Source: a virus
Lineage: Duplodnaviria; Caudoviricetes
Direction: 5' to 3' (one strand)
Length of the DNA: 64,000 bases
IMG/VR virus record: IMGVR_UViG_3300035208_002115
This document shows positions 2,561 to 62,747 of the stretch, piece after piece; position 1 is the first letter of the stretch, and each line of letters starts with the position of its first letter. The notes under the pieces were generated by a model that ran no database searches, was not told where the DNA came from, and saw only the letters and a program-made list of their open reading frames with translations. Position numbers and translations under genes: made by a program.

Positions 2561-3196
2561 TTAACTTAAAATATCGTTAATTTTAAGGTCTCTTATTAAG
2601 ATAGATAATTCTTTCTGTATTTCTTTATCATGTATTGACCTTATTATTTCATATAATTTATTTACTTCATATGAATGACCATGTTTTGAATACAAATATT
2701 CAGATACTTTCTTAACGAGTAAACCTCGTTCGGTATAATTGTTTTTTGATTCGATAGTTTTTATAACATGACAAGTCCTATCTTCATCATCATTCACATA
2801 CAATGAAATAGTAGCATTAATCAAAACATTTGTACTTAATTTGTAATCATCGTGTACAATAACCTTATCAATAAATTTATAATCAACAAGTGTTGCTGGT
2901 ATTGCTAAGACTGATGTAGTATTATAAAAAGTTGACGGCTTATGTGAGAAGTTAGATGATACAAATGGATAATATACACCTTTTAAGAATGATGAATTTA
3001 TGCGTTTTTTATAATATATAATATCACAACCAAAATGATAACTTTTAACCATTTGTAAATCGTTATCTTCGTCTGAATTTTTAACGTACAAATATTTATA
3101 ATCATTATTAAAAATTATTTCACCAGTAACTGGGTCAAATATTATAATGGTATAAAATCGGTATTTATCGTTTAGTTTATTGAATTTGATAATCAC
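2561..3196 (-). CDS. Hypothetical protein with C-terminal RxxKIxxIL tail
   Basis: Ends IRDLKINDILS. Confidence 0.7.
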   Translation of the reverse strand: MIIKFNKLNDKYRFYTIIIFDPVTGEIIFNNDYKYLYVKNSDEDNDLQMVKSYHFGCDIIYYKKRINSSFLKGVYYPFVSSNFSHKPSTFYNTTSVLAIPATLVDYKFIDKVIVHDDYKLSTNVLINATISLYVNDDEDRTCHVIKTIESKNNYTERGLLVKKVSEYLYSKHGHSYEVNKLYEIIRSIHDKEIQKELSILIRDLKINDILS

Positions 3197-3202
3197 ATTT
3201 AA

Positions 3203-3379
3203 TCATGAGGGGGCATTACATTTAGCATTGGGGTCTTTTCGACCATGACCATATTTACATTCTTCACAGGTTAAAATAGATTCGTATTCACAATCGAATT
3301 CGTATCCCCATGATGTCCAATATTTATATCCTTTACAATTTGGATTTGTACTGGTAAATTCTGGTGAAAATATACTCAT
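3203..3379 (-). CDS. Small Cys-rich protein (58 aa, below ORF-track cutoff)
   Basis: Hand translation MSIFSPEFTSTNPNCKGYKYWTSWGYEFDCEYESILTCEECKYGHGRKDPNAKCNAPS; fills the gap between co-oriented genes. Confidence 0.65.
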   Translation of the reverse strand: MSIFSPEFTSTNPNCKGYKYWTSWGYEFDCEYESILTCEECKYGHGRKDPNAKCNAPS

Positions 3380-3427
3380 ATCAAAAGCTTTGTGATATGT
3401 ATAGTTTAAAAAAGTGAAAAGGTCGAA

Positions 3428-3721
3428 TTATTTTTCGTCTTTTTCTTTAATATTTTGAATAGTTTTTAATGCTGAGTCTAATACATTGTCAGACTTATCT
3501 ATATTGGCTGCAAACGCTAACATACTTGTAGCTTCTTTTCTATCCCCCACCTTTTTTAATAAATCGGATGCTAATTTTTTACCAGACGTATAAACATCAG
3601 TTATCTTTTTATCTTCTGGGATACCAAGAATTTTATGCATTTTACCTTTTTTAGGTTCAACATCTGCTGTCCATTTTTCTTCATTAATAAATAAATCAAA
3701 TGTTTTAACAATTCTGTTCAT
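3428..3721 (-). CDS. Hypothetical protein with capsid-targeting-like N-terminus
   Basis: MNRIVKTFDLFINE; TTAATATATA upstream at 3741-3750 (minus). Confidence 0.7.
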   Translation of the reverse strand: MNRIVKTFDLFINEEKWTADVEPKKGKMHKILGIPEDKKITDVYTSGKKLASDLLKKVGDRKEATSMLAFAANIDKSDNVLDSALKTIQNIKEKDEK

Positions 3722-3767
3722 TTTATATTTTTATTTTAGGTATATATTAAATATCAATTTTTCTATA

Positions 3768-4742: not shown

Positions 4743-4751
4743 AAATAAGAA

Positions 4752-4930: not shown

Positions 4931-4950
4931 CAATAAAATTATTTTTATTT

Positions 4951-6663: not shown

Positions 6664-7542
6664 TTACAGTATGTTTTTAATTTTAGCCATTCGAGACAAA
6701 TTCTTTATACTCTTTTCATCTGAAATATTTATTCGTCTAAACCCTTTATAAGAAACACTCCCATTGTCTATTATCATATATCTATTTTCATCCACAAACA
6801 AAGCATCAATATCCATATCAATATTAAATTTGAAGAAACTGCCTATATTTGTTTCGAAATATTTTTCGATACTAATTGATTCAAATTCTCTTTTTTTAAC
6901 ATTTGCGAATATCAGACAATCAGTTTTATAAAAAACCAAAAAATCGCCAAAATATTCTATTAAAGCTTTATAAATGTATTGGTTATAAAGATTTAACACA
7001 TTTAAACCATTAAAGTCACACTGGTATATATTAATTTTCTTATTATAATAAAGAACAAATAGATAGTTTATAAAATCTTTGATTAATTTGAAATTATCCG
7101 ACTTTTGTAAATAATCAATATGTTCTAATATATTGTGTATTATAATACCAAAACATTCATCATCAAAAATTATTTTATCATTTAACCAAAATGTATTTAA
7201 TATGTTTGGATATAATAAATCAATATCCATTTTATTAGAATTAACTATTCTATTCTCATAAACCTTATTTAAGTAAACAATATTTTTTTTATCATTCACA
7301 ACTTCCATATTGGATATAGTCTGTAAAAATTTATCATAAATGAAATCAAAATATTTTGTTTTTCGAGTTTCTTTATAATCAGAAATCTGATATGATGACA
7401 CCGACACATGGGCTAATAATTCCTTACGAATATTATACCATGTATCGTAATCTATTTTTATATCATCTTCCAAGTGTTCAAAAACCGATAATATAACATC
7501 TATTATGTGCTTTTTACTGTCCATTACTCTTTTTAAATCCAA
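6664..7542 (-). CDS. Degenerate family-B DNA polymerase palm-like protein with RxxKIxxIL tail
   Basis: DIDLLYPNI (motif A), KDFINYLF (motif B-like), YKTDC (degenerate motif C); ends SRMAKIKNIL. Confidence 0.6.
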   Translation of the reverse strand: MDLKRVMDSKKHIIDVILSVFEHLEDDIKIDYDTWYNIRKELLAHVSVSSYQISDYKETRKTKYFDFIYDKFLQTISNMEVVNDKKNIVYLNKVYENRIVNSNKMDIDLLYPNILNTFWLNDKIIFDDECFGIIIHNILEHIDYLQKSDNFKLIKDFINYLFVLYYNKKINIYQCDFNGLNVLNLYNQYIYKALIEYFGDFLVFYKTDCLIFANVKKREFESISIEKYFETNIGSFFKFNIDMDIDALFVDENRYMIIDNGSVSYKGFRRINISDEKSIKNLSRMAKIKNIL

Positions 7543-10123: not shown

Positions 10124-10336
10124 ATGAAACATTTAAAAACATTTGAATCCTATCAAGATACGAACGAAAGTACGGACTTAGAAGTTTGGTTCGCACAATT
10201 ACCATTAAAACAACAATTAGAAATAACTGGGATTAAAAATACAGGTAAAACAGAAGCACTCTGGCATGAAGCTGAATCAGAATGGTATGCAATGCCAGAA
10301 GATAAAAAGAAAGAATGGTACGATAAATTAAATTAA
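10124..10336 (+). CDS. Small protein with capsid-targeting-like N-terminus
   Basis: MKHLKTFESY. Confidence 0.7.
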   Translation: MKHLKTFESYQDTNESTDLEVWFAQLPLKQQLEITGIKNTGKTEALWHEAESEWYAMPEDKKKEWYDKLN

Positions 10337-11444
10337 TCATTTATTCCTACATAACCCTTTACAATCACATCTGGTTACAGTATCAGAATAACACCAATCA
10401 AGGCCATCTTTTTCATCGAAGACGGCCTGAATTTTTTTAATAGGTATTTGTACTCGTTGACCTTTTTTATATCGTTCGAAATCCCATTCACAACGTTCCA
10501 GTTCACCAATGAATAGGTTTTTATTAAAATCTATTGATTTAATTCTGAACCACACATTTCGTTTACCATCACTGTGAGACAATCTAACAGACACCAATTG
10601 GTCACATAGAAACTCCACCACCATGTCCACCAGTCCCCATTTTTTCTTTGGTTTTTTGTTTATCTTTTGGATATTTACTATTAAAATAATACTTGAATAT
10701 TCTTTCTATTCCAGAAACAATTATACCAACTAATACTAATATAAACACCCCATACCAAAAAAGAGTAGAACTATCTTGGCTTTTTAAAAATTCGTATAAA
10801 TTATTCATATATTTATTTTTATTAATTACCAAATTCACCAGATACAGCATTATACAGACTTTGAAATATTTCTTTTATCTCGTCAGCCGATAACCCTTTA
10901 GATAATAATGTCTCAGATGCTTCATGAAATGCATCAGCATTTGAATCATCCCACCATTGACCATCATTTGGAAGGTCACTGTTTATAAACTCTTTTAATT
11001 TTTTGTTTGTCATAATTCAATTATTTTATTACAATTCATTTATTTCACCAAGGTCATTTGGTTCTTCAGTAACTTTTCTAAATGATTCAATCCAACCACC
11101 ATTACAACATGCCATAATATGGATAGCTCCAGTACTATGACAAGAACAATTACAAGGGTAATAATCAACAATATATTCAACCCCATTTATCACCCTGCGT
11201 TCTGGGTCTGGCTTTAATATTGGATAGAAATTTTTCATTTTCTTGATTTCTTTTTATAATTATTAATATCAATCGGATGTTTATCTAAAAACAATGATTT
11301 AAATGCTCGTTTAATATTTTTAAATCCACTTTCCAGTGGTAATTTTCTGGATACCTTGGCACACTGACGTTTATCTTTCAGATTTCCCTTTCTTCCAGCG
11401 AAATGGGACACACTTACTTCATTTGTATACCTGCTCCGTGACAT
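10337..11444 (-). CDS. Run of five small hypothetical genes (10337-10630, 10602-10850, 10822-11013, 11029-11238, 11235-11444)
   Basis: Co-oriented, abutting ORFs; one has a TM helix, one is Cys/His-rich, one is basic. Confidence 0.6.
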
Positions 11445-11935
11445 TATAAATCATCAAAAATAGATTCCAAAATATTTTTCCTATATAATTTAGTAAAATC
11501 TTTTATTGGTAAACTAACGATATCTGCGTTATTAAAATAATTTTTCTTAAATCTTGAAAAATAATATTTATCATTAATTTTTAAAATAAAGAAAAAAAGT
11601 ATTGAATTTAATGCCGTATTATATATGTTGAAATATTCTCTCGTTTCAGCATCTAAAGCATTAACATCATATTTAATTTTTAAATCATCAACTTTAACAA
11701 GATGGTATTCTATTTTTTCTTCAAATTCAACAAGTGATATACCTTTTATTTCGATAATGGGTAAATCCAATAAAGAATTTAAAATATTATCATTAATACC
11801 AACAAAAGAAAATAAATCGATTTCTTGGTCTGAATATTCATACATTTTATATATGGATAAAAAAAACATTTCTTTATCAATCTTCGAATGAATATTAGTA
11901 AACACCTTTTTAATCAAAATATCCATACTATTCAT
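11444..11935 (-). CDS. Hypothetical protein with variant C-terminal tail
   Basis: Ends LYRKNILESIFDDL. Confidence 0.65.
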   Translation of the reverse strand: MNSMDILIKKVFTNIHSKIDKEMFFLSIYKMYEYSDQEIDLFSFVGINDNILNSLLDLPIIEIKGISLVEFEEKIEYHLVKVDDLKIKYDVNALDAETREYFNIYNTALNSILFFFILKINDKYYFSRFKKNYFNNADIVSLPIKDFTKLYRKNILESIFDDL

Positions 11936-13157: not shown

Positions 13158-13490
13158 TTAATAATCAAATATTTCTTTTAATTTTTTCTTTCGTTCTTCA
13201 ACTAAATAATATCGTTTCAATTTATTTTTCAAAACACCATCTTTGGTGTATTCTAATATATTTGTAGTGTTAATAAATGGTGGTATATCATGAATCTTCC
13301 TGTATTCACCTCGTATTACATCTTCCAGAACACCCAATAATGTTAAGCTCCGTCTATACACATCTAAACTTGGTGAAGGAAAATAATTTACCAAATCTTT
13401 TCTCAAAATTAATACACCAACTTCTAATTTATTGATGTATTCTACAATTTCAGAAAAATAACTATAATCACTTAATTTATTCTTTGCCAT
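13158..13490 (-). CDS. Hypothetical protein with C-terminal tail
   Basis: Ends EERKKKLKEIFDY. Confidence 0.7.
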   Translation of the reverse strand: MAKNKLSDYSYFSEIVEYINKLEVGVLILRKDLVNYFPSPSLDVYRRSLTLLGVLEDVIRGEYRKIHDIPPFINTTNILEYTKDGVLKNKLKRYYLVEERKKKLKEIFDY

Positions 13491-27447: not shown

Positions 27448-29151
27448 ATGGCTGAAGAACTTAACAATACGGGAGAACATCTATCACCAATAGAGATAGA
27501 AGATATATCATCTAAGGCACAAGTAGCTAAAGTGGTATCTGATATCATTCTTACTATTACAGGTCAACAAAAAGTTATTAAACGTAACATAATTCACCCA
27601 AAATTTGAGGCTGCAAATATTGAAATGCTTTCAACTGGTAATTTACCTTATTATGGTGAATTTAATTTGTTTGTTAATTTTCATGAAGCTAATATTGGCA
27701 CATGTGGTGTAAATGTTACCAGTACTGGTATGCACTTTTATTGGGATAGAGGGTTTGTAGATTCGTTAGAACCTAAAGAAGCCAACTTTTTACTTATTCA
27801 CGAAGATTGTCATTTACTATTTGACCACATTAAAAGAACTGTTGGTTATGACCAAAAATTAGCAAACATAGCCCAAGATATGATTATCAATCAAATCATA
27901 CATGATGATATCATGCAGTCATCTTCTCTGAAAGGTTTCATAACAATACCAGTAAGCCATGATGAATTCATTAAACGACCAGATGGAACATTTGTATTTG
28001 ATAAAAAAGGAAACACAATAAAGAATCCAAATTTTGGTCGTAATACTGCAATGTTTGTACCTAAGAAATATAAAGGTGTATTAATATTTGAAGAATTATA
28101 TGAGTGGTTAGTTGAAGAACTTCAAAAATATAAAGACCGTCAAAGGGGCGGTCAAAATAAAAAACAAAACCAGAATCAACAAAGTAACGGTAACCAAAAT
28201 GGTGACAAAAAAGGTAACCAAGATGGTCAAGGGGGTCAACAACAAGACCCCAATGGTAAAGGTAAACCTAACGGTGATGGTCAAGGTGGCAGTGACCAGC
28301 AAGATGACCAAAGTAATGACGGTAATGGAAACGATGGTCAACAAGATAAGCAAAATGGTAAAGGTAATAAACCTAATAATTGTGGTGAAGGTGGTAATGA
28401 ACCAGATTATGGCAATTACGGACAGAACGACCTTGATATGTGTCATCTTGACAAGATTTTTGAAGACCTCGACACATCTAAAGGTGAAACCTTAGATAGA
28501 CATTTAACTGATGAAGTTCCAGAAGAACTTAGAAAGGAAATCATTCGGGATATAATGGAAAACCTAAAGAGTCGTGGTTTGGAATCTGGTGAAATGGAAT
28601 CTATTCTTCAAAAATTGAGAAAATCAAGAAAAGATTATCTCAAAAAAATTAAGAGAGTTATCACCAACGAAATTTTTGGTTCGATTAAAGAAAAAACCAT
28701 AACTCGACCAAACAGACGTACTATTCAAGGATTAAAAGGTAAGAAAAAATATCAGAACTGTATTAATGCAATTCTTGATACATCTGGTTCTATGAGTGGT
28801 GAGTTTGAAAAGGTTTTGGCGTACATATTCCAGAATGATGTCAATATTAATTTGATTCAAATTGATACCCGTATTCAAGATGTTGTAAAAATAAAGAATA
28901 AAAAAGAACTTGAAAAAATGAGAATTAAAGGTCATGGGGGTACGACTATTCAACCATCTATTGACTATATTGTTGATAAAAAGAATGGACTTAATAAATA
29001 CAATACTATCATTCTGACTGATGGTTGCACTGATAGTTTGAATTTTAAGGGTGTAAAAGGTAAATCTTTAATATTATCAACATCCACAGAATGCCCCATT
29101 GATTATAATAATGGTCGTTTGAAACAAATTATAATTGAAAAGAATAGTTGA
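27448..29151 (+). CDS. DUF2201-like metallopeptidase plus vWA domain protein
   Basis: HEDCH (HExxH), NIAQDMIIN, G/N/Q-rich linker, DTSGS MIDAS, GGT, LTDG. Confidence 0.88.
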   Translation: MAEELNNTGEHLSPIEIEDISSKAQVAKVVSDIILTITGQQKVIKRNIIHPKFEAANIEMLSTGNLPYYGEFNLFVNFHEANIGTCGVNVTSTGMHFYWDRGFVDSLEPKEANFLLIHEDCHLLFDHIKRTVGYDQKLANIAQDMIINQIIHDDIMQSSSLKGFITIPVSHDEFIKRPDGTFVFDKKGNTIKNPNFGRNTAMFVPKKYKGVLIFEELYEWLVEELQKYKDRQRGGQNKKQNQNQQSNGNQNGDKKGNQDGQGGQQQDPNGKGKPNGDGQGGSDQQDDQSNDGNGNDGQQDKQNGKGNKPNNCGEGGNEPDYGNYGQNDLDMCHLDKIFEDLDTSKGETLDRHLTDEVPEELRKEIIRDIMENLKSRGLESGEMESILQKLRKSRKDYLKKIKRVITNEIFGSIKEKTITRPNRRTIQGLKGKKKYQNCINAILDTSGSMSGEFEKVLAYIFQNDVNINLIQIDTRIQDVVKIKNKKELEKMRIKGHGGTTIQPSIDYIVDKKNGLNKYNTIILTDGCTDSLNFKGVKGKSLILSTSTECPIDYNNGRLKQIIIEKNS

Positions 29152-29176
29152 TATTTAAAAATCTAATTTATTCAAT

Positions 29177-29692
29177 ATGAAAGCATTATATCTTTTAATT
29201 AAATTTTATTTTCGGACACATTTTCCGAGTATGTTTTCACCATATGTTAGTTTAAAACTAATATTAAGAGAAAATATAAATAACACAATCAATGTTATTA
29301 TTGATACATCTGGTTCTTGTATTATGCCAGAGTATAAAATTAGAAATGATTTTTTTAATATTTTATTTTATATTTTAAATAAAAAATATTCAATCAATCT
29401 TATTCAAATAGATACCCAGATAAATTCTATATCGACCTTAAAAGGATTTGAAGATTTATTAAATCTTAAATTAAGTGGTGGTTGTGGTACAAAATTACAA
29501 CCTGCCATAGATTATATTGTTGATTCACGAAACAGATTGAATACAAATTCGACTGTATTATTAACTGATTCATTATTCGATACTTTAAATTTCAAACATT
29601 ATCACAATAATGTCTTGATTGTCGTGGATGAAATAATCGAGAACCGTATAATTGGTAACTCAAAATTTGTTAAACAGGTTTTAAGTAAATAA
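29177..29692 (+). CDS. Stand-alone vWA domain, paralog of the upstream gene's C-terminus
   Basis: IDTSGS, INLIQIDT, QPAIDYIVD, LLTD match 27448-29151. Confidence 0.85.
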   Translation: MKALYLLIKFYFRTHFPSMFSPYVSLKLILRENINNTINVIIDTSGSCIMPEYKIRNDFFNILFYILNKKYSINLIQIDTQINSISTLKGFEDLLNLKLSGGCGTKLQPAIDYIVDSRNRLNTNSTVLLTDSLFDTLNFKHYHNNVLIVVDEIIENRIIGNSKFVKQVLSK

Positions 29693-29713
29693 ACCTCATT
29701 AATAAAAAATATT

Positions 29714-29747
29714 AAAATCCGAATTTTTATAAGCTCGGATTTTTTTT
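29714..29747 (+). terminator. Intrinsic terminator
   Basis: AAAATCCGA...TCGGATTTTTTT. Confidence 0.7.
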
Positions 29748-29793
29748 ATTCATGTATACCTTGTATTTTTGATATGAATTAAAAATATGTGAT

Positions 29794-30192
29794 ATGGAAA
29801 ATATAGAAAATATTTTAAGAAAGATAATCTTTACTGTAATGATTATAGTTGCATCGATATTGATATTTAATCAGTATGATATATCCCACAATCAGAAAAA
29901 AGGAACTACTACCAGTATGTTCAGCCAGATAATATTTAAAGGTGTTCCTAAAATATTCAAAGAAATTTTTAATAGTGGTATTAAGCAAGAAATAAAAGAA
30001 GGATATCAAATAATAAAAACTGATATTAAAGAGGGGAATAATGGTATCTACAATGATGTTGATTCCACTAAAATTAATTTGAAAAAAATAAATAATGAAA
30101 AAAATATTGAAAGTGAAGACGGTCTTGTAAGTGTTGAACCTGCTACTGAAAAAGAATTGAGAGAATATAATATATACATTGAAAAAAATTAA
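29794..30192 (+). CDS. Membrane-anchored hypothetical protein
   Basis: N-terminal hydrophobic helix. Confidence 0.6.
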   Translation: MENIENILRKIIFTVMIIVASILIFNQYDISHNQKKGTTTSMFSQIIFKGVPKIFKEIFNSGIKQEIKEGYQIIKTDIKEGNNGIYNDVDSTKINLKKINNEKNIESEDGLVSVEPATEKELREYNIYIEKN

Positions 30193-30348
30193 AAACTTTC
30201 TTTAATTTTTACGGTAATAAAATATTATTTACTTTATATTTGTATAGATGAAACACTTTTTAATTATACAATTTTTTTTCCTTAATTATAATACTTAATT
30301 TTATTGCTAATTAAAATAATTAAAATATAACTTCAAATATTAATACTT

Positions 30349-31641
30349 ATGGTTATTAAAGATGCACTAACAATGTTCACGGGGGTCACGAAACCCGAAC
30401 TTTTGAAAAAGATGAACACTCTTAATAAAAAAGAGTTGACTTATTTCAAAATAATGCTTGCTAAGTCTGGTGTGCTGGAAATCCGTTCGAAACCCGGTAT
30501 TGCTAAATCTGCTATCATGAAAGAGGTTGCAGATAAAATGGGATTCAGATTTTTTGATATACGTTTGTCAATGGTCGATGAAACTGATGTTGGTTTATAT
30601 CCCATTGTCACTACAAAAACGGAAAATGATGTAGAAATGAAATTCATTGAACACGTACCACCATTGTGGGCTTATGAAGCAAATCAAAACCCATCTATAA
30701 TTTTCTTCGAGGAAATGAATAGGGCTAATTTAGCTGTTCGTAACGCTGCCCTTCAAATCCTTCTGGAACGTACCATAGGTTATAATTTCAAGTTTAACAA
30801 TAATGTTTTGATGTGTGCCTCTGGTAATCTTGGTGAAGAAGATGGTACAGATGTTGAAGAATATGACTCAGCATTGAACAACCGTCTTATTCATATGAGA
30901 CACGACCTTAATATTAAGGAATGGAAAAGTGGTTTTGCTGATGATTTTGTTCTACCAACCATCGTAAGTTTCTTAACAAGTCACGGTGAACATTATTACA
31001 AAACAAAAGGTGATAAAGAAAATGATGCTATGGCTGCTTATGCAACCCCACGTTCATGGACATTCTTGTCAGATTATATTTTGACTAATTATCCACCAAC
31101 TATTGATACTGATGCACACGGTAATTCATTATTTATCAATGATAAAGAAGAAATCGTTGAAGGTGGAACTAAAGGTGCAATGCCAAAATTGGTTTATCCA
31201 CCTATTAGAGATTGGTTACCTGATATCAAAGAAATTTCGATTAGTTACGTAGGTGCTTCTGCACACAGATTTATTCGCTATTGCGAAGAATCACTCAGGA
31301 TTGGTGTTGATGATGTTATAAATCGTTACCCTGAAATCGCAGAAGACCTTAAACGATTCAACAGGGATAAAAATAGCGAACTTTTGAACGGTCTTAAAAA
31401 GTACAAAATTCCTGATTGGGATAAAAAACAGAGTGAGAATGTTAAAAACTTCCTACTCACCGTTTCTAAGGACGAATTAACTGGTTACCTGATATATGTA
31501 TTGGATGACCATTACCGTCTAAATGATGATAGCAATGACAAGAACACTAAGATTGTCAAAGAATTCATCAAAGACCCAAGGTTCAAAGAGGAATTCAGGA
31601 CTATTTACAAACATTGCGACCATAACAATGAGACTAAATAG
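30349..31641 (+). CDS. MoxR-like AAA+ ATPase
   Basis: SKPGIAKS Walker A variant, DIRLS, FFEEMNRA, ASGN, ALNNR, TPRSW; TATATTTG at 30235. Confidence 0.9.
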   Translation: MVIKDALTMFTGVTKPELLKKMNTLNKKELTYFKIMLAKSGVLEIRSKPGIAKSAIMKEVADKMGFRFFDIRLSMVDETDVGLYPIVTTKTENDVEMKFIEHVPPLWAYEANQNPSIIFFEEMNRANLAVRNAALQILLERTIGYNFKFNNNVLMCASGNLGEEDGTDVEEYDSALNNRLIHMRHDLNIKEWKSGFADDFVLPTIVSFLTSHGEHYYKTKGDKENDAMAAYATPRSWTFLSDYILTNYPPTIDTDAHGNSLFINDKEEIVEGGTKGAMPKLVYPPIRDWLPDIKEISISYVGASAHRFIRYCEESLRIGVDDVINRYPEIAEDLKRFNRDKNSELLNGLKKYKIPDWDKKQSENVKNFLLTVSKDELTGYLIYVLDDHYRLNDDSNDKNTKIVKEFIKDPRFKEEFRTIYKHCDHNNETK

Positions 31642-32334: not shown

Positions 32335-32712
32335 ATGACACATGTTAAAACATTTGAAAACCATTCTGGGGAATCTTCCAATAGTATAAAATGGGAAACT
32401 ATAAAAAAACATGTAGCAAATCAATTACGTAATTTGTTACAACCAAGGGATATCATCATAAAAGAAGCTGGCAAAATATTAACATATCTTGTTAAAAGAA
32501 GAATTAATAACGAAAAAGAATTGACATTCACTCAGACATGGGATGTATTCAAAGAAGTTAAAAATGATTTAATCAGTATTGTGGATAATTGGGATATTAG
32601 AATGTGTGACAAATTGATAGAACTATATCCAAAAGGTGTTCCTTCTTTCGTTAAAAATAAAAAATATAAAGCCGAATTAACTGATGATGGATGGATTTTA
32701 GTGAAAACTTAA
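32335..32712 (+). CDS. Hypothetical protein with capsid-targeting-like N-terminus
   Basis: MTHVKTFEN; TTAATATATA at 32303-32312, inside the upstream gene. Confidence 0.7.
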   Translation: MTHVKTFENHSGESSNSIKWETIKKHVANQLRNLLQPRDIIIKEAGKILTYLVKRRINNEKELTFTQTWDVFKEVKNDLISIVDNWDIRMCDKLIELYPKGVPSFVKNKKYKAELTDDGWILVKT

Positions 32713-35313: not shown

Positions 35314-38300
35314 ATGAAATTTTATATGTGGCAGATTTTAATATTTAAAATTTTATATAAAAAATATTGTAAATTAATATGTCATTGGAGTGGTCATATA
35401 TATACCGCATTCTGTAATAACGGTATTATTTTCAACGATGAGGTTTATCCATCAATTTTTTATGTTTGTTCAAGATGTAATAATTCATTATCACCAGAAG
35501 AATATAAACAGTATGAACGTAAACAAAAAATAAAAACAATCCTATAATATTTATGTTCAATGTTCCCCCACATAAAGAATTTTCACATAAGTTCACTTTT
35601 AAAATTATATGTGACTGGTTAAAATATAATTTCGTTATCCTTAGAATAAAATATAATTGTTCTATTCATGGACATAAATATAAATTACTTTATGAAAAAG
35701 GTAATTTTGGAAAAATATCATTGAAAGACGACATATATCAATGTTCAGTTTGTCAAAAAAGAATAATGGGAAATGACCTTTTAATGGAAGAACGAAAAAG
35801 AAAAATAAAAAGCATACTATGATAGTAATATACAAAGAAAATGATTACCCTATTAAGTCATTAAAAAATGAACAGAAATATTTAATTAAAACTATCACTG
35901 ATGATAATGTTGAATTGTTTAACATCCGAGGGATATTTAATAAATCTAATTTTTTAGATGAAGACGGGAATGAGATAAAGAGCGAAAAATATACCAATAA
36001 ATATATCATCACTAAAAAAAATACAGAACGTGGTGACAGGGTATTGTGTGTTGATAATTTTGGTGATATGCGATTAGGTGTAGGTAGTGTTTATAAAGTA
36101 GAAGATGTTGTACATTACATGGATAAATCATTTAAATTAGATTTAGTACATGATACAGATTTTATACCACAGTCAGGCTGGATATATACTACCATGAGAG
36201 GTGCTGAATTTAATCCAAATGCATTTATTAAGTTCAATAAAGAAACAGAACGATATATAAAATGTTTGAAAATTTTTGATGATATAAACGTTTTAAAATT
36301 GGAATAATATGAATGAACTGGAAGAAATGAAATCAGCTAAAGCTGAATATGACCGTATATGTCAAATTCATGAAGATTTCATAAAAGAACATACAAACCA
36401 AACACATTCCGATGTCGATGCTGTTTCTAATATGATGTCACGTTCTTCCATTGAAAATATGTCAACCATTGAAATTAAAACCATTGAAGATGTTATTCAA
36501 TGGAAAGAGATAGAAAATAAACGTTTAGAATATCATAAGAAATATGTAGATTTGTATATCAAAGCTAAACAAAAAGGGTTAATACAATGAGTATATTTTT
36601 TGATGTTGAGAAAGGTAGCATTCTTCATAAAAAAATGCTAATATGGAGTTCTTTTTCAGTATTATTTGCATTAATTGTTAATACTATTATATTGTGGTGT
36701 TTGACTTTTCATAATGGTATGGATAAAAAACCATCTTCTACAAACAGCACAATAGTCGGAATATACTGTATATGGTTTTTTTATAGTTTATTCACAATAA
36801 AAGAGATAAATAAAAAATCATTATTAACACATGCGCCATTGACTATACCAATTTATACTTTCTTATTCTTTATTTACAGATACCTACGTAATAAATATCC
36901 ATGTGTAGGTGATATAAACATTAAACGTAAAATATTAATAAAAAGATGGGGATTAAAATAAAACAAATAAAAGAGGGAAGTGAACTATTTCATAAGATAA
37001 ATAGTTATACCGTAAAAACATTCTACCTATCAATTTTAATTCAATTTATAGGCATTATTGTCTCTTTATTAATAATACACAACGTATATTATTTTATCGC
37101 AAGTGTATCGTATTTTATATGGATAATAATGTCACTGGTTTTAATAAATAAAGTAGTGGCAAATTTTTCTTTTATAAATTTAAAATTTTTTCCCGTAATA
37201 ATAATAGTTATACCAATTTTATATTTTTATTATTTTTTATTTAGAAATAAATACCCAGCATCAAAAGATGCTGATTATTTAAAGAATTTTTATAGGATGA
37301 GAAAGATAAAAGATATCTTATGATATGAGTACAAAAATATATGATGGTATGATTTTCGAATCAGATAATCTATCAAAATTTCACAAAGTCATAAAACAAT
37401 TGCATTCTGAAGCATCAATTATCAAAGATGAGTTAGCCCTTAAACTTATAGCCTATAAATATCAAACATATTTCGATAATAAAACCAGAAAAGAAGAAAT
37501 AGCAAATGATTTTAAAAGAAAATTAGATGAAAAGACTGTCAATTTTATTTTAAACAACAATTATGTATTTATTAATATCCTAACAGAATTAATAAATAAA
37601 CGCTGCAAATCTGTATTAAATTCAATTGAAAGAGATATATCATATGATTTAGATTTAGTGGTAAACTTTGCGCCAGTAAATAAAAGAATATTAATATATC
37701 CATATTATGAACAAAAGGAATATGGCATTTTATTGAATAAATATTTTAAACAATTCGGGTATTGGAACAACACAGATAAACCAGATAATGTATTGGGTCG
37801 GGATTGGACTATTAGAAAAAAAATGTGGGATAAAGTAGTGGATGAGAAGATGTTAAAATACACACTCATTAACTCTAATGATATTATAATATCTTATCCG
37901 TATTCATTCGATAATTTTAATGATTTCTCAACTAAATTAATATCATATTTCTCACCCTTACCAGAGAGAGCTTCTGAATACGCTAAAAAGAAATATATCG
38001 AAGAATTTATAAAGAATAATCAAGACTCAGAAACAACAGGTTTCGAAAGCGTTTTTAGTGCCATAGATTCTTTGAAAGAAGAAAAGGTGAAAGTCACCAT
38101 CAAGAGATACACAGAAGAAATATTAGCTACTCTACAAGAAATAGATGTTGATATATTAAACCATTATCGGCTGGAAAAATAATTAGATGAAACATAATAT
38201 TCCCAACCCACATAGAGATTATCTAAATGATTATTTAATATATTTCAAAACAGAAAAAGGTTTCGAATTATATTACGAAGCTTATGCTTTATATTTTGAA

Positions 38301-38652
38301 CAAAGTCCTAATCAATTTAGATGGACATTTCCAACATTTATTAGAAACCCCACTGGTTCTGAACGTGATAAGTATCTGAATTTAGTTAAATTAAAACATA
38401 GAAAAGAAAAAATTGAAGATATATTAGATGAAACCCCCACAACTTGATTATTATGATAGTAAAGGCACTCTTATTGACTATGACCTTTATTGGATGGCGT
38501 ACCATAATTATATTTACGAATGTAAAATGGGTGAGCATGTTTATTCTTTTACATATTTTATTAATAATGGTGTAAGTGATAAATATATTATAAATACCAA
38601 ACAAACTCACAGGAAATTAAAAATAAAAGAAATATTTAGTGATATAGAATAA
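35314..38652 (+). CDS. Operon of nine small/medium genes, most with the C-terminal tail (35314, 35553, 35819, 36309, 36587, 36946, 37325, 38187, 38428)
   Basis: Tails ERKQKIKTIL, ERKRKIKSIL, RYIKCLKIF, RMRKIKDIL, RKEKIEDIL, RKLKIKEIF; includes two zinc-finger paralogs and two membrane paralogs. Confidence 0.7.
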
Positions 38653-40085: not shown

Positions 40086-41922
40086 TATCACCGTAGAAAT
40101 TAATGAGAGAGCCATAGTTGAAGTTATCAACTTTGATGAAAATACATCTTGGATTAGATGGTATCTACCAGATTTTTCAGATAATGGTAATATAGATTTA
40201 CCTAAAGGTGGTAATTATCAACTGAAAGAGAGAATAGGCAACATAGTTACTGTTGAATATTTGGTAAAATAATACGAATGTGATTAAAGTAGACTGGGAT
40301 AATCTAAACAAAGATGATAAGGAATTGATGTTAAAATTCCGTTATATTATTGATGCGTATGATGATGAATCGATTGATTCCACTAAAATAACTGAAGAAA
40401 AACGTGAATTTGTTACAGCCATTCACGATTTTTTAAATTATATACAAAGTTTCGAAAAGGCTCATGATGATGTTATTGGTCACATTTTAAAGTATCAAAG
40501 GCATATTATTGAAAATTTTGTTGTAAAATTCTATACAACTATTGATTTGAAAATATTCCGAAAGAAAAAACTTGATAATATATTCAATGAAGAATTTGAT
40601 ATTATTAAATAAATTTGTTAAATTGTTTAATGATAAATTCAAAGTCGTTATAGATATGAATTTTGATTTTAAAAATGAATATCATAAAGATAATACGACT
40701 TTTTATATTACATATGGACTTGATTATAACTATAACCCAGTTGCTGTTAATAAGATAAATGAATATGAAAGATATATTGATAAGCATCTTATGAATTTCA
40801 ATATTGATGAAACAGAAAATCAACCGCTTCAAGATGAAATAAATGAGGTTTATAAAAAAATACATTCAATATTAATTGAATATGGTTATCTTTCATTTCA
40901 AAAAACTCTTGATACATACCAATTAGTACAAAGAAACTGGTTTAGAATATTAAAAGAATATGATTCATATGGTTCTTCATTAATTTATGATGAAGAATTT
41001 AAAATTGCATATTCTATTTATAATAATTATGATGATATAGCATGTATTAACCGAGATAAATTAACTATCTACACTTTATTCATCATTCGGGAAGATTGGG
41101 TGTGTGAAGTTGGAGACGTTTGCTATAATATAGATAAGCAACAATTTTATTTGAATAATTATAACACATTTTATTTCCCAGAAGAATTAAGAAAAATTCC
41201 TTTAGATGTTTTTTCTGGAAAAGCTGCATTTTATTACCATCCTGAAATAAATACTGTTGTATTAAAATGTGATGATTTTACAGTCACAAAAATACCGTCT
41301 TCAATTATTCATTCCAATGGTTATATTAACTTGGTGTATGATAAATCTTTATTGAGAAAAATAAAAATAGAAAATATTAATATTTAATTGGTGTTTTATA
41401 AAAAAAGGTATACCTTTCCATTAATTTAAATTTCATATTTAAATTCAAAAATAATGTATAAAAGATATGGAATGTTTAACAGTAGATAAATATGATTATA
41501 AAATCAATTGGTATAATTCTGAGTTAAAAACCTTAAAAAATAAAATAATAGATACTCGCACAGATAATATTATTAAAGAATATTTATACAAGCCACTTTA
41601 TTTAACTTTAAATATTTATCCAAAACATTTAATAGACGTAATTCATAAGACTTGTATAGAAAATAATAATACTGATGTTTCTATTTCTGAATACAAGAAA
41701 CTATATCAACCTTTTAAAATAAAAATAAAAGATGATTCTAAATATGTAATTAAGAGAACCTATTTAGTTAATGAAAGATTTAGAGTAGAAGAATATAACA
41801 CCAATGTTTTATTTATCATCGAAGATGTAATAAAAGAAATTACTTCGATGTTCGTTAACAGTGAACAAATAATAAAAGTCGTAAAACCACAACTTTATCT
41901 TCGTATGGCTACTTTGAATTAG
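40066..41922 (+). CDS. Four hypothetical genes (40066-40272, 40280-40612, 40572-41387, 41467-41922)
   Basis: Two carry the tail (FRKKKLDNIF; LRKIKIENI). Confidence 0.65.
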
Positions 41923-45970: not shown

Positions 45971-48130
45971 TTATTTTAGTAAATCATTCATAGTATTTAT
46001 ACACTCAATCTTAGTTTTAAACCAAAATATTTTATTACTATCATCAACTAAAACAAAACCACTTTTTCTAATGGTGTATTCGGAAGTTACTGCAAAATAC
46101 TTATTAATATTTAAATAAATTCCATTCTTAACGTCCTCATTAAATTTCTTAGTTTGAACTTCATTAAATTTTACAACCGACATTATTTTCATGATTCTTT
46201 AAATATTTTTTTCAATTTTTCTTTTCTTATTAACCTTTTAATTTCATTTAAATAAATATCAATATCGCTTGTGTGGAGTGTCAAAAACCCATAAAAAGTT
46301 AAACTGGGAATATCCTCATTTTCATTTATATACATAATATAAGCTTTTATATATAAATATATATCACCATCTATACCAGAATTTATGAAAGAATTTTTAT
46401 AGTAATTCATTAATTCATCGGAAATGCTCTTTAAATATAATAAGTTTGTTATTGGGTCTCGGAGAATTTCCATATCTCAGTTATTTTTTTCTTCCTCTCA
46501 TAATTTTTAAACTTCTGAATGTATATATTTAGTTTTTCAGATATTAAAAAACCGTAAAAGGTATAATTAAGTTGTTCAAATGCATTTTTCCATTTATAAT
46601 ATTGGTAAGCTTCAACTGATAATACAAAATCTGATTCACTATCAATTAATGAGGTCGTATTATTTTGTTCAATAAAATCAATGAATTCATAACGATATTT
46701 AGCATATTCTATATAATCCAGATTCATAATTCATTATTAAATATTTCTTTTAATTTCGATTTACGTAATGACATATTAGCTTTATTGATATCATCTTGTG
46801 ACATAATAGACTCCACATACTTGCTAAATGATGCTGCATCAACTGAACATCTATCTAAATAGATAAAATATGCAGTTTTATAAAGTTCAAAATTATTATA
46901 ATATTTTTTTAAATCAAGATTATCCATCTAAAATTTGTTCTATTTTAGCTTTTCGAATTAAAAGGTTAGCCTGTTGTAAATAAGGAGACTTGTTTTTTGA
47001 TGTAATAAATCCATAAAAAGAATATCGTCCTGTATCTTTTGCTTTTTCAAAATAAATATCATAAGCAATACGATATATATGATATTGGTCTTTATCATCA
47101 CTGATTCTATCAAAAAAATACTGACGTTCCTCTTTTACAACAACCGCCTTAGAATTTATATATTCGTTTGAATTTTCATCTTTTAAATATCGATAACTAA
47201 AAAGACTATATTGGACACCATTAGTCAATTTCATAATTTTTCCAATTTTTCATTTAACATTTTAATAAATTCTTTTCGATTAATATTAAAAATTGGTTCA
47301 TCATTTATCGTGAAAACGTATCCAATTTTCCTTGGAGTTAAATTTTTTGTTAACATCACATATTTATCCATCATGACATGTTTTCTTCTTTTATCTAAAC
47401 GATGTTTATGATACAACTCTATGTTTCCATTATTAAATTCGGAAACATGTGCGATTGTTATGTTTAATATTTTAGGTTTTCTTTTTGACATTGTTATTGT
47501 CAATTTTTTTATTTAAAAATTTAATCTATCATCATTTTTTCTAATTTTAACTTCCGAAGGATTTTCTTCGCTTCATCAAAAATATCTTTAAAATGAACTT
47601 TCATAGTATTAAAATAATCAGGTTTTAATGCAGTTGAGAAAAAAACTAAACTATTATTATATCTAATGAGATATTTTTTATAAGCATACTGGTTTATAAA
47701 TGATTCATCATCATAATAAAAAATATCAACCAATATACCATCGATATATAAAGCAATATTTTTATTTTCTTTTGCCAAGGACTTCAGTTTTTACTCTAAT
47801 CATTTCTTGGCGATTATGTTCATCTATTAAAGCTTGTTCTTGCATGTGGATTTCAAATTGTGTGTCGGACATATTTAATAAATCTAATATATCTTTACTA
47901 TAATTTTTTAAACATTCCATATAACCAATTTGGTGTTGATAATTTGTAAGGGCATCTAATTTATAATCTTTGTTTTCACAAATAGTATCGTCTGAAAATT
48001 TAACCCCTGTACAATCATTTGGAAGCTTAACATAATAACCCATTTCCTTTTGACAATTTGCTATATGTTTTTCAGCATATGAGATATTATTTTTTAATTC
48101 TTTCTTTAGATGAATAATACTTTTTGACAT
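45971..48130 (-). CDS. Operon of eight small genes, five with the C-terminal tail (46189, 46449, 46724, 46920, 47521)
   Basis: IRKEKLKKIF, ERKKKITEIW, LRKSKLKEIF, IRKAKIEQIL, LRKLKLEKMM; shared AYxxY core. Confidence 0.7.
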
Positions 48131-48879: not shown

Positions 48880-50210
48880 TTAAAAATAGTATGGGTGAGA
48901 ATTAGTTTCTTTAACCTTTTCCAATTTTCCAATTTTAGAATCAATTTCTTCCAATTGCTTTTTATAGAAATTGAATTTATCACGATTTCCAAATTTAAGA
49001 GAATATTCCAAATTTTTAAGAATCGAAGCTCGTCTTTCTGTTAATAAATTTAAATCTTTCATTTTTAATCGTTTAGAATTTCTTGGATTTTTAATCTCCT
49101 TAATTTAACATTATTCATTGTAAAAACCAATGCGTTGTATGAAAAATGTTGACTTGGTTTTGTTATTTGTATAAGTTTATCTATTTCTTCTCTGTATACA
49201 ATTTCATCATTATTATTAAAACCATGAGTATATCTCATACCTGATTTTTCATCAATAAATATAAATGGTATTAAACAATCAATAATTTCTGATGAAAAAA
49301 CTTTTTCATTAATATAAATAAGATGGTCTTTCATTCTTTCCATTAATAATGTTATATTATCACCCCATGAAAATTTATTATGATGAAAAGAATAAAATGT
49401 GAAATTATTTATTTTAGTTTCTTTTAAATATATCGGAATACCGTAATATTCCATAATTGCTGTTCTTCTTTGTGAGTCAGTTGCATAGAAACCCAATTTT
49501 TTATAAACATAGTTATCTAAACCATATTCAAATAGTGTTTTTTTAATAGTACTCATAAATCAAGAATTTCTTTAATTTTTTCCAGCCGTGCTAAATTAAT
49601 AGGTAATGAATTCAAAAAATCTTCATTAGCTTTTTTATTTGCATCAAGATATTTTTGTTTTTTAATATCACTGAAATACTTTTTGAGAATGATATAATAA
49701 CCAGTTCGTAAATCTTTATTAAACCAAAAATTGAATATGGATAAAAAATGAAATTGTACCCCGATATTTTTACTTACAACTTGTACCTTTCCAAAAATAT
49801 TTCTTTTATGAATCTTAATGACAACCATCGGATATTCAACCATAAGATAATTATAATAAAAAGAATATCCATCACCACTTTGGTATTTATGTTCATATTG
49901 AGAAAAATCCTTATATAAGGATGCTATTAGAATTTTTCGATAAGTACTTTTAGTCTCTTTAGATGGTTTCATATGTTTACTTAATAAAAAGCAAATATAT
50001 GAAATTCCACCCAAAAATGACAATAATTTTTTAAGATAATAACAGTGGTATTCTATAACCTTTTTGGGTTTTTATTTCATTTAATTGTTCATCAGTTAAA
50101 TTATCAACATCCCACCCCTTTTTTATTGCATATTGAGATGCAAAGGTTTCTCTTAAAGCTTGTAAGTCTTCAGTTGTAAGACCCGTTTCTTTTATTAATT
50201 GTTCTTCCAT
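48880..50210 (-). CDS. Four hypothetical genes (48880-49062, 49065-49556, 49553-49972, 50031-50210)
   Basis: Two have tails (LRRLKIQEILND; ARLEKIKEILDL); 50031-50210 hand-translated (59 aa). Confidence 0.65.
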
Positions 50211-60623: not shown

Positions 60624-60634
60624 TAAGATTAAAT

Positions 60635-61312
60635 ATGATTCTTAAATATAATAAATTCTTAAATGAATCCTTAGACTTTAAATTGAATAATCCTGAATTT
60701 TGGGAAGATTATAAAAATTTATTAAAAAAACTAAATAATCAAGATAACTTTTCATCTTACTGGGAATTTAAAGAAAAGTGGGTAGGTGTTGTATTAGAAG
60801 AAAAACAACTTGAAAATGCTTATAATAAATTATATGTTGATTTACACAATAAAAATATAATTCCTGTCGGAATAACATTCAGTGAAAATATTTACATGTA
60901 CGCATATGGATGGCGAGATATTACTAAATTCTTAAAAAAAGAATATAATATTAATATAGATGACCCCTTTGATTTTATTAAAAATAAATCAGTTAAAATC
61001 TTCAGAGGTGTACCAAAAACTCAATATGAAAATCTTGAATACTTATCTGAAAATAAATTTAAATCTTTTACATTAGACAAAGAATTGGCAATTCGATTTA
61101 CACAATTAGGTTATGTTAGTGGGAGCTGGAAAGATGAATCGCAAAAAAACGGGTTTATTATAGAAACAGATATAACATTAAATGATATTTATATATACAA
61201 CCCAGAAGGTCACGAACACGAATGTATAGTTCGAGGTGAGTTAAATTATAAAAAAATCCATATTGTTGAAAATGGCAAAATTACAGAAGTTGCAAAAATT
61301 ACAGAATTATAA
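60635..61312 (+). CDS. Putative R-S-E ADP-ribosyltransferase with capsid-targeting-like N-terminus
   Basis: IFRG...SFTLDKELAIRF...EHECIV; starts MILKYNKFLNE. Confidence 0.6.
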   Translation: MILKYNKFLNESLDFKLNNPEFWEDYKNLLKKLNNQDNFSSYWEFKEKWVGVVLEEKQLENAYNKLYVDLHNKNIIPVGITFSENIYMYAYGWRDITKFLKKEYNINIDDPFDFIKNKSVKIFRGVPKTQYENLEYLSENKFKSFTLDKELAIRFTQLGYVSGSWKDESQKNGFIIETDITLNDIYIYNPEGHEHECIVRGELNYKKIHIVENGKITEVAKITEL

Positions 61313-62138
61313 AAGTTTTATTAATGAAGATTTAGGATTAATGGAACATGATGGCATATTAATTATAGTCGATGTTCAAAAAGAATTTGGTGATTACATC
61401 CCCGATGATATGGTTAAAGAATTGTTTGAATATTGTAAAGAATTTCATGATGTATATCAAATTTGGGATGCTCATGATGCTGCTACTCCGACTTTTAAAT
61501 TTCCCAATCAGAAGTTATCTATAAAAAAGCAATTCGGTAAAAAATTCTTAGAAAAAGATATTCAAAGTAAATTGGAAAAATTAAAAAATGGTAGTATTGA
61601 AGGTCAACAAATACAAATCGATTCGGATGACATTTTCGTTCGAGTTAAAAATAACCACGATTGGTTTTTTATAAACGAAGAATTATTAAAACTATTTAAT
61701 GAATTAAAAGGTAAAAAGGTTATAATGGTAGGTGGTGCTGACTTTGAATGTTTAAAAGATGTGTTTATTGCATGTAAATCTATGGGTGTTAAGGCCATGT
61801 TAAATCATAAATATATTTACAGTGCCGAAACTAAAAAGGAAGAAATATCCGAAAGTGTTGTATTTAAAGTTAACAATAACACTCCTGAAATTTTTCAAAG
61901 AACCATTTATAGATTACCAACTACAAAAGAATTAGAAAATGTAAATAAATTCAAGTTATCAGAAGAAAAAATTTTAAATGGATTTGTTTATACCATTATT
62001 GGTAGAGGTATTAAAGATTCTAAAAATAAACAAATAATAATAGAATCCATATCAATATTATGTGAATTATATCCAGATAATGAAACATATAAAAAAGCAC
62101 TCATTTTAGCTAAAAATCTGTCATTAAAAAGATTTTAA
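61272..62138 (+). CDS. Isochorismatase/cysteine hydrolase-like protein with capsid-targeting-like N-terminus
   Basis: ILIIVDVQ.EF, D.H, VGGADFEC; KLQNYKSFINE. Confidence 0.7.
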   Translation: MAKLQKLQKLQNYKSFINEDLGLMEHDGILIIVDVQKEFGDYIPDDMVKELFEYCKEFHDVYQIWDAHDAATPTFKFPNQKLSIKKQFGKKFLEKDIQSKLEKLKNGSIEGQQIQIDSDDIFVRVKNNHDWFFINEELLKLFNELKGKKVIMVGGADFECLKDVFIACKSMGVKAMLNHKYIYSAETKKEEISESVVFKVNNNTPEIFQRTIYRLPTTKELENVNKFKLSEEKILNGFVYTIIGRGIKDSKNKQIIIESISILCELYPDNETYKKALILAKNLSLKRF

Positions 62139-62168
62139 AAATTAATATATAAAAATAAAAACATCAAT

Positions 62169-62567
62169 ATGAAATACTTGAAAATATATGAGTCATATAG
62201 CAGTAATAAGTCTGAAAATTTTTATGCCAAATTTTGGATAACTGCATTATCGAATGCATTTAATAGTATTGCTGAAGTTGATAAAAGTCAGAAAATAAAA
62301 CCATTATATGGTGGGGGTGATTATATATTTGTCGGATACAAAATACCAATCCCAGATATAGAAAAAATATCTTATATTATAATAGAAGGTGTTCAAATTA
62401 ATGGTGTTATAGTTAATCCGTCAATAATAGTTTTCGATGAACAAAATATGGGAATGAGTCATGGTGCATTGCATACTACATATACATTCAAAAAGTTACA
62501 TAATGAAAATATAATTGAGGTTATAGAAGCAGCTAAAGATTATATAAAAAAATATTCATCAAATTAA
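62169..62567 (+). CDS. Hypothetical protein with capsid-targeting-like N-terminus
   Basis: MKYLKIYESY; TTAATATATA at 62142. Confidence 0.7.
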   Translation: MKYLKIYESYSSNKSENFYAKFWITALSNAFNSIAEVDKSQKIKPLYGGGDYIFVGYKIPIPDIEKISYIIIEGVQINGVIVNPSIIVFDEQNMGMSHGALHTTYTFKKLHNENIIEVIEAAKDYIKKYSSN

Positions 62568-62600
62568 ATACATTAAAATTAAAAATTAATATATAATGTT

Positions 62601-62747
62601 ATGACCGATGTACTGATGAATATTAGTGAAGAACATAAAAAAATATTAATAACTAAAATAGAATCAATATTTGAAAATGACCCATTGGTTAGGAAGGCCA
62701 AATTAAAAAAAATATTTAACGAAGATGGCATTAGACTTATCGACTGA
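62601..62747 (+). CDS. 48-aa protein carrying the C-terminal tail motif
   Basis: Hand translation MTDVLMNISEEHKKILITKIESIFENDPLVRKAKLKKIFNEDGIRLID. Confidence 0.6.
   Translation: MTDVLMNISEEHKKILITKIESIFENDPLVRKAKLKKIFNEDGIRLID

What the first reader, a model, noticed from the sequence alone, without database searches (positions are those of the whole stretch)
2561..62747. A shared C-terminal tail, R-x-x-K-[IL]-x-x-[IL]-[LF], on ~20 unrelated proteins: candidate docking or sorting system
Seen in sequence: the tail occurs at or within a few residues of the C-terminus in 2561 (RDLKINDIL), 6664 (RMAKIKNIL), 13158 (RKKKLKEIF), 26879 (RQVKIKNIL), 35314 (RKQKIKTIL), 35553 (RKRKIKSIL), 36946 (RMRKIKDIL), 38187 (RKEKIEDIL), 38428 (RKLKIKEIF), 40280 (RKKKLDNIF), 40572 (RKIKIENI), 46189, 46449, 46724, 46920, 47521, 49065 (RRLKIQEIL), 49553 (RLEKIKEIL) and the unannotated 62601 (RKAKLKKIF). 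Variants occur in 11444, 31733 and 35819. The bodies are unrelated: zinc fingers, membrane proteins, an NTase and a dead PolB palm. The invariant Arg uses CGA, CGT, CGG, AGG and AGA codons in an AT-rich genome, which points to protein-level selection rather than a DNA repeat. None of the recognisable core enzymes (primase, DHFR, gp46, RtcB) has it, and it is never on the same protein as the N-terminal tag. Inference: a modular 'variable head plus constant helix' system in which many adaptors or effectors dock onto one common hub (a phage AAA+/protease, a host machine or a compartment), comparable in logic to F-box adaptors. I know of no description of it, but cannot verify novelty.
Basis: partly seen in the sequence, partly recalled or inferred. 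Interest (0 to 1): 0.92.

Follow-up and report, generated by a model that had tools for sequence, protein, structure and literature searches.

The report
Shared C-terminal helix tag, huge phages
About one protein in six of this 676-kb uncultured phage and its relatives (nearly all small, unrelated to each other, and often downstream of host-type early promoters) ends in the same short helix, which behaves like a docking label for one still unidentified partner and which I found described in no paper.

Summary
Confirmed, and genome-wide. About 176 of ~1,120 genes (16%) of this Mahaphage-like genome end in R-x-x-K-[IL]-x-x-[IL]-[FL]; shuffles give ~4. Selection is on the peptide: in orthologues R and K are 97% and 96% conserved (head R 51%, head K 66%), while their codons vary freely. 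Position follows the gene's own stop. Tagged operons are enriched for a Bacteroidota-type promoter element and depleted for the phage late box. They exclude the late, T4-CTS-like N-tag. Relatives carry lineage-specific versions, and shared heads switch version. Heads include Acb3 and tiny fragments of the phage's own capsid, scaffold/protease and polymerase; in the 735-kb phage such fragments carry another tail. Best reading (0.55): a docking helix for one common partner. A clade-specific M16B peptidase is the best correlate; the window's AAA and MoxR were not found in one near-complete tagged genome. Clamp tail, terminal degron and DNA by-product failed tests. The scan noted this RxxK tag on other DNA (e1-5341852) and other tags in other huge phages; I found no paper.

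The parts
2561..3196 (-). tagged ORF, 211 aa, head unknown
6664..7524 (-). tagged ORF, 286 aa; PolB-palm claim not confirmed
11444..11845 (-). variant tail (Asn-Ile in place of x-Lys)
13158..13490 (-). tagged ORF, 110 aa
26879..27373 (+). tagged ORF, 145-164 aa
31733..32332 (+). internal variant copy about 27 residues before the stop
35314..35547 (+). tagged ORF, 77 aa, weak zinc-finger hit
35553..35822 (+). tagged ORF, 89 aa
35819..36307 (+). variant tail (shifted Lys)
36946..37323 (+). tagged ORF, 125 aa, weak M50B-like hit
38187..38447 (+). tagged ORF, 86 aa
38428..38652 (+). tagged ORF, 74 aa; its last 35 aa fold as one helix in the tail alignment
40280..40612 (+). tagged ORF, 110 aa
40587..41387 (+). 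tagged ORF, 266 aa, weak nucleotidyltransferase hit
46189..46473 (-). tagged ORF in a four-gene tagged run
46449..46727 (-). tagged ORF, 92 aa
46724..46927 (-). tagged ORF, 67 aa
46920..47234 (-). tagged ORF, 104 aa
47521..47778 (-). tagged ORF, 85 aa, Met-Met variant
49065..49556 (-). tagged ORF, 163 aa
49553..49972 (-). tagged ORF, 139 aa
62601..62747 (+). tagged mini-ORF, 43-48 aa
7514..8698 (-). AAA+ ATPase ending in an IGF motif; considered as reader, not found in tagged genome G021
27448..31641 (+). vWA/metallopeptidase (27448) and MoxR AAA (30349); considered as reader, MoxR not found in G021

Best explanation
The tail is a portable docking helix. Arg0, Lys3 and the hydrophobic residues at 4, 7 and 8 lie on one helix face that binds a pocket on one common partner in the cytoplasm of the infected Bacteroidota cell, early in infection. 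The heads are fast-evolving, probably host-facing modules, some of them anti-defence proteins or decoy fragments of conserved virion and replication proteins. The tail brings them all to the same place or machine, to be concentrated, protected, processed or used as adaptors. The partner is probably phage-encoded, because the tail version follows the phage lineage; the clade-specific M16B peptidase is the leading named candidate. Shown: enrichment, protein-level selection, exclusion of the N-tag, lineage versions and the identity of some heads. Predicted from sequence: the helix and the early timing (promoter motifs). Inferred: binding, a single partner, and what the partner does.
For: Enrichment about 37-fold over shuffles. 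In 93 orthologue pairs found by heads alone, R0 is 97% and K3 96% conserved, against 51% and 66% for head Arg and Lys, while 45 of 89 conserved R0 codons changed silently. Tails share codons no more than genome usage predicts (0.573 vs 0.571, also among neighbours). Arg is strictly required: R..K 147 vs K..K 11 and R..R 4, although Lys is far easier to encode here. The predicted helix has pLDDT 96 over residues 21-30. 161 of 178 heads are singletons. Versions: this genome 176/1124, G001 118/971, LR756502.1 181/972 (R-D-x-K), LR756501.1 34/1019 (R-T-x-L-I-D); none above background in LR756500.1, PTm1, PAU or half of Lak-A1. Homologous heads carry each genome's own version. An ABC ATPase has the tail here and a clean stop 20 aa earlier in its 80%-identical orthologue. 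Acb3 domain at 17-218 with the tail after it. Tagged capsid and scaffold fragments occur in three RxxK lineages (this genome with G001, LR756502.1, LR756504.1), and with the other tail in LR756501.1. Promoter split repeated in three relatives. M16B found in 9 of 9 near-complete tagged genomes and 0 of 5 comparison genomes, and in only 5 of 50,697 phage records, all of tagged genomes.
Against: No partner is identified. The M16B match is confounded by descent: 44 genes share its profile, and the comparison genomes all lie outside the tagged subclade. One tagged 155-kb record (estimated 83% complete) has none of the three candidates. Only a handful of heads have a known function, so 'host-facing' is extrapolated. 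Early timing rests on promoter motifs only (37% of tagged leaders). Exclusion of the N-tag may simply reflect the early/late split.
Confidence: 0.55

Rival explanations
1. The tail is a generic membrane-binding, self-associating or stabilising helix with no protein receptor; it keeps small unfolded proteins at the membrane, together, or safe from proteases.
For: Basic (net +2) amphipathic helix. Tagged proteins almost never have transmembrane segments (3/176 vs 50/680), as expected if the tail were an alternative anchor. Mutual compatibility of tails would also give genome-wide versions.
Against: Strict Arg at 0 and Lys at 3 is unusual for lipid binding (own knowledge). The hydrophobic moment is modest (0.23). 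No acidic partner position is conserved across versions, so no internal salt bridge is fixed. Decoy-like heads carry an acidic-aromatic tail instead in LR756501.1.
Confidence: 0.17
2. The tail is a proteolytic signal: a removable pro-peptide or degron read by the phage M16B peptidase or by a host protease, timing the maturation or removal of early proteins. This overlaps the best explanation if M16B is the partner.
For: Intact HxxEH M16B gene at G000 233106, related to MPP-beta and bacterial M16B structures, with the best presence profile. MPP reads Arg-containing amphipathic helices (own knowledge). Early proteins often need turnover.
Against: 0-12 variable residues follow the motif and seven internal copies exist, unlike ssrA-type terminal degrons. 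By my count from the alignment, the acidic Arg-binding positions recalled for MPP-beta are not kept in this lineage (inconclusive). M16B also occurs in G003, where the R-tail is rare.
Confidence: 0.14
3. The tail is a second capsid-loading signal, binding the inner capsid wall like the P22 scaffold helix (R293, K296), and is redundant with the N-terminal tag.
For: Same R-x-x-K spacing as the P22 coat-binding residues (PMC9965877). Mutual exclusion with the N-tag. T4 internal proteins are early genes (own knowledge).
Against: The phage's own scaffold/protease does not end in the motif. Tagged operons lack the late box (8% vs 64% for N-tag operons). About 180 more cargo species would be needed beside about 130 N-tagged ones.
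Confidence: 0.1
4. The motif is a by-product of DNA: an A-rich translation-initiation region of the next gene, or a spreading DNA repeat.
For: Tagged genes are more often coupled to the next gene (107 of 178 overlap or nearly so), and the Lys-Ile codons overlap the A-rich initiation region. Tagged genes cluster (113 with a tagged neighbour vs 51 expected).
Against: Next starts fall in all three frames; 38 of 178 tagged genes have no close downstream start. Codons are no more alike than usage predicts, and silent changes are free at Arg0.
Confidence: 0.03

Closest known systems
Phage T4 capsid targeting sequence (CTS) of internal proteins IPI-III (PMC3012670)
   Same: A short shared peptide on a diverse set of anti-defence proteins that sends them all to one destination.
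   Different: CTS is N-terminal and loads proheads. This tail is C-terminal, sits in operons with host-type promoters, and excludes this genome's own CTS-like N-tag.
Poxvirus ankyrin-PRANC / cellular F-box adaptors (own knowledge)
   Same: Variable target-binding head plus a constant C-terminal module on many viral host-interaction proteins.
   Different: One short helix rather than an F-box domain; no Skp1-cullin ligase in bacteria; degradation of targets not shown.
P22 scaffolding protein C-terminal helix, R293 and K296 binding coat D14/E15/E18 (PMC9965877)
   Same: C-terminal helix with R-x-x-K as the invariant residues.
   Different: Different hydrophobic pattern; one essential late protein there, about 180 accessory proteins here; this phage's scaffold lacks the motif.
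Mitochondrial presequences read by the M16B peptidase MPP (own knowledge; PDB 1hr6 matched)
   Same: Basic amphipathic helix with Arg on many unrelated proteins, and an M16B enzyme in the same genome.
   Different: Presequences are N-terminal and have no fixed consensus; cleavage here is untested.
C-terminal clamp-binding tails of T4 gp43, gp55, gp33 and PIP boxes (own knowledge)
   Same: Hydrophobic spacing i, i+3, i+4 near the C-terminus.
   Different: Absent from polymerase, ligase, RNase H, clamp loader and gp55 homologues here.

Membership tests
F-box/PRANC adaptors | variable head with a constant terminal module on many proteins | tested here: met
F-box/PRANC adaptors | F-box-like domain of about 40 or more residues | tested here: not met
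   single helix of about 12 conserved residues; no shared Pfam, NCBIfam or PDB match
F-box/PRANC adaptors | delivers bound targets for degradation | not testable with these tools
   needs cells
T4 CTS | N-terminal position | tested here: not met
   C-terminal; exclusive with the N-tag
T4 CTS | cargo is packaged into heads | not testable with these tools
   no isolate or proteome
Sliding-clamp-binding tails | carried by polymerase, ligase, RNase H and late sigma | tested here: not met
   in this genome and relatives
ssrA-type C-terminal degrons | fixed register to the free C-terminus | tested here: not met
   0-12 variable trailing residues; seven internal copies
P22-type scaffold coat-binding helix | R-x-x-K on a C-terminal helix | tested here: met
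P22-type scaffold coat-binding helix | present on the phage's own scaffold and expressed late | tested here: not met
MPP-type M16B substrate signals | M16B with intact zinc motif encoded with the clients | tested here: met
MPP-type M16B substrate signals | acidic pocket for the Arg near the cut site | tested here: inconclusive
   positions recalled from yeast MPP-beta are not conserved in this lineage
MPP-type M16B substrate signals | signal is cleaved by the peptidase | not testable with these tools
   needs an assay

The most novel reading that the evidence does not exclude
A phage adaptor system on the logic of F-box proteins: about 180 early proteins, among them an anti-CBASS protein and decoy fragments of the capsid, prohead protease, scaffold and polymerase that host immune sensors recognise, capture host factors with their heads and hand them through the shared helix to one phage-encoded machine that destroys or sequesters them.
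Probability: 0.15. Interest if true: 0.92.

Novelty: new variant of a known kind. Interest (0 to 1): 0.7.

Why it matters
A sixth of the genes of some of the largest known phages, mostly dark matter, carry one label. If one partner reads it, finding that partner explains about 180 proteins at once and gives a sequence marker for early host-interaction genes: one labelled gene is a clear Acb3, so the rest are a ready list of candidate anti-defence proteins. With the N-tag, more than a quarter of the genes carry one of two exclusive tags that split by early and late promoter type. The label is short enough to test directly with peptides and reporter fusions, without culturing the phage.

Tried and rejected
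Complex prediction, M16B dimer with the tail alignment: score 0.02, 'no answer'; no evidence either way. Sequencing runs: first call failed, second listed no RNA holder. Tail profile against 1.84 billion proteins and the PDB: too short to score. Single-sequence fold of 49065 was unusable (pLDDT 39); the Atlas gave nothing for 38428. A fixed-length DNA pattern for counting tails per genome was too noisy, so relatives were gene-called instead. No gp45_C or ClpP Pfam match in the genome. Likeness to the last helix of primary sigma factors (own recollection): the phage sigma70 ends in a weak tail-like string, but the LR756501.1 and LR756502.1 genomes gave no BLAST match to it, so co-variation could not be tested. 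Cellular genomes: 1 of 80 pattern loci had two tagged ORFs, against 31 of 66 viral loci with two or more, so no host counterpart was seen. Four literature searches for such a tag or a phage adaptor system found nothing; the library lacks most subscription papers.
Full report
SETTING. The window is bases 157370-221369 of one 675,678-bp virus contig, 27% GC. Its gp46 and T4-type major capsid protein are closest to the 634-735 kb genomes LR745206.1, LR756501.1, LR756502.1 and LR756504.1 (capsid 50-62% identical). PMC7162821 places genomes of these sizes in the Mahaphage clade with predicted Bacteroidetes hosts. I called about 1,124 genes with a dicodon model (91% coding). The caller drops some overlapping ORFs, such as window 35314 and 36946, so counts are slightly low.

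1. THE OBSERVATION. The listed tails are present. Genome-wide the pattern peaks three residues from the stop at 0.044 per position, against 0.0002 inside proteins. Shuffling the last 25 residues gives 4.4 matches against 166 observed, and 0.5 against 16 in the window. An iterated profile finds 176-178 genes at a score with about one expected false hit. The consensus is [IEL]-R-K-x-K-[IL]-[KE]-E-[IL]-[FL], followed by 0-12 variable residues. The proteins are small (median 110 aa) and clustered. 161 of 178 heads have no relative among the other heads.

2. PROTEIN, NOT DNA. Distance to the own stop is tight (mode 33 nt from the Arg codon). Distance to the next start is spread over all three frames, and 38 of 178 genes have no near downstream start. 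All six Arg codons are used. Given the same residue, two tails share a codon 57.3% of the time, as genome usage predicts (57.1%), and neighbours are no more alike. In 93 orthologue pairs with G001, found by heads alone, Arg0 is kept in 97% and Lys3 in 96%, against 51% and 66% for the same residues in heads (p 4e-19, 4e-11); half of the kept Arg0 codons changed silently. Lys does not replace Arg0, and Arg does not replace Lys3. AlphaFold2 on 70 aligned tails gives one helix, most confident over the motif. Positions 0, 3, 4, 7 and 8 fall on one face (helix geometry). Seven internal copies exist, one with a counterpart in LR756502.1, so a free C-terminus is not required.

3. TWO CLASSES OF TAGGED GENES. 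About 115-130 genes start with M-K-[YH]-[IL]-K-x-F-E-x-F, which resembles the T4 capsid targeting sequence (resemblance from memory; the CTS role is in PMC3012670). The two tags exclude each other. Leaders of tail operons carry the Bacteroidota primary-sigma element TAnnTTTG in 37% and the box AATATATA in 8%; N-tag leaders show 9% and 64% (p 8e-6, 1e-16). Tail leaders also differ from all other leaders (p 1e-4 and 2e-4), and the split recurs in three relatives. I read this as early against late. This is inferred from motifs, not from RNA.

4. THE CLADE. Whole-genome gene calls give the tail on 12% of genes in G001, 19% in LR756502.1 (R-[DNE]-x-K-[LI]-N-x-[IL]-L), 13-16% in 50-kb samples of the 634- and 636-kb genomes, and 3% in LR756501.1 (R-T-x-L-[IM]-D-x-M-L). 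LR756501.1 also has a second tail, D-P-Y-G-E-E-x-W, on 41-44 genes. None above background was found in LR756500.1, PTm1, PAU or 270 kb of Lak-A1. Many other viral contigs carry the R-D-x-K version. Homologous heads take their genome's version: G000 560510 has tagged homologues in two other lineages, 442763, 27938 and 557723 in one each, and two head families pair an R-tail with the acidic tail. An ABC ATPase has the tail here but stops cleanly 20 residues earlier in G001. The tail is therefore portable and is kept uniform within a genome, as expected if all copies must fit one reader that changes with the lineage.

5. THE HEADS. Few are recognisable: Acb3 (E 3e-25, residues 17-218, tail beyond it), an ABC ATPase, a receiver domain and ankyrin repeats. 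Profiles of the phage's own core proteins find tagged mini-proteins of 54-95 aa that copy pieces of the major capsid protein (223568, 223918, 542147), the protease-scaffold (541498) and PolB (586527, weak). Similar capsid or scaffold pieces occur in G001, LR756502.1 and LR756504.1, and with the acidic tail in LR756501.1. Earlier notes pointed me to these (e1-5341852) and my test confirms them. That they are decoys for host sensors is inference. Transmembrane heads are depleted, so the set is cytoplasmic.

6. Forty-four genes are shared by the four fully read tagged genomes and missing from the untagged ones. I followed three. The window AAA (7514) and MoxR (30349) are in eight of nine near-complete tagged genomes but were not found in G021, estimated 95% complete and tagged. 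An M16B peptidase (G000 233106, intact HxxEH, MPP-beta and bacterial M16B relatives) is in all nine and in none of five comparison phages. Among 50,697 phage records, only the five records of the four tagged reference genomes have it. This is correlation by descent as much as by function, and one tagged partial record lacks all three. Replication proteins lack the tail, which rules out the ordinary clamp-binding role.

7. MECHANISM. Most likely (0.55) the helix docks on one partner early in infection. Rivals are a receptor-free membrane, assembly or stability helix (0.17), a cleavage or degradation signal (0.14), a second capsid-loading signal like the P22 scaffold R293/K296 helix (0.10; PMC9965877), and a DNA by-product (0.03). 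The bold form, adaptors that route captured host immune proteins to a phage machine, I put at 0.15.

8. KNOWN SYSTEMS AND NOVELTY. Shared terminal peptides read by one partner are a known principle (T4 CTS, clamp tails, degrons, F-box/PRANC, MPP presequences). This tail fails the membership tests for CTS, clamp tails, terminal degrons and F-box domains, and matches no Pfam, PHROG, NCBIfam or PDB family as a group. I found no paper on it. The scan has noted the same RxxK tag in another huge phage and other tags in several more; where such claims were checked later, the bold readings were put at 10-33 in 100. The pattern itself, its scale, its early/late partition and its lineage versions are solid. 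The partner is open.

VERDICT. Real, protein-level, clade-wide, apparently undescribed; new variant of a known kind; interest 0.70.

Noticed in passing
window 10124-10336, 19405-20208, 32335-32712, 53257-54064, 62169-62567 and about 120 more in G000: T4-CTS-like N-terminal tag on about 115-130 genes, with a late-type box AATATATA about 27-35 nt upstream; candidate packaged cargo.
   Followed up: partly
G000 233106-234233 (L009:15923-17050, minus): M16B peptidase with intact HxxEH, found among 50,697 phage records only in the five Mahaphage-type records; 610 homologues in metagenomes.
   Followed up: partly
LR756501.1 (e.g. 145582-146127) and G003: A second C-terminal tail, D-P-Y-G-E-E-x-W, on 41-44 and 12 genes; never with the R-tail, sometimes with the N-tag.
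   Followed up: partly
G000 541079-543260 and 223218-224383: Arrays of 49-95 aa tagged mini-proteins, several copying pieces of the capsid protein or protease-scaffold; one array lies beside the capsid gene.
   Followed up: partly
G000 636116-636829: Acb3 (CBASS inhibitor) homologue with the tail appended; its two database relatives also have it.
   Followed up: partly
window 7514-8698: The AAA+ ATPase ends in an IGF motif, kept in G001 and LR756501.1, like the ClpP-docking loop of ClpX (own knowledge); no ClpP was found in the genome.
   Followed up: no
G000 660703-661554: Phage-encoded sigma70-family factor whose last helix scores weakly as a tail.
   Followed up: partly
L287 and L274: A contig labelled as a giant-virus MAG carries the same five tail endings as a phage contig, so it is probably a mis-binned huge-phage fragment.
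   Followed up: no
G001 166169-166844 and 408782-409045: Two orthologues have the tail-coding DNA shifted out of frame, either decay or assembly error.
   Followed up: no
G000 141078-147029: A run of about 14 tagged genes of about 120 aa with a local version ending in Leu-Gly-hydrophobic.
   Followed up: no
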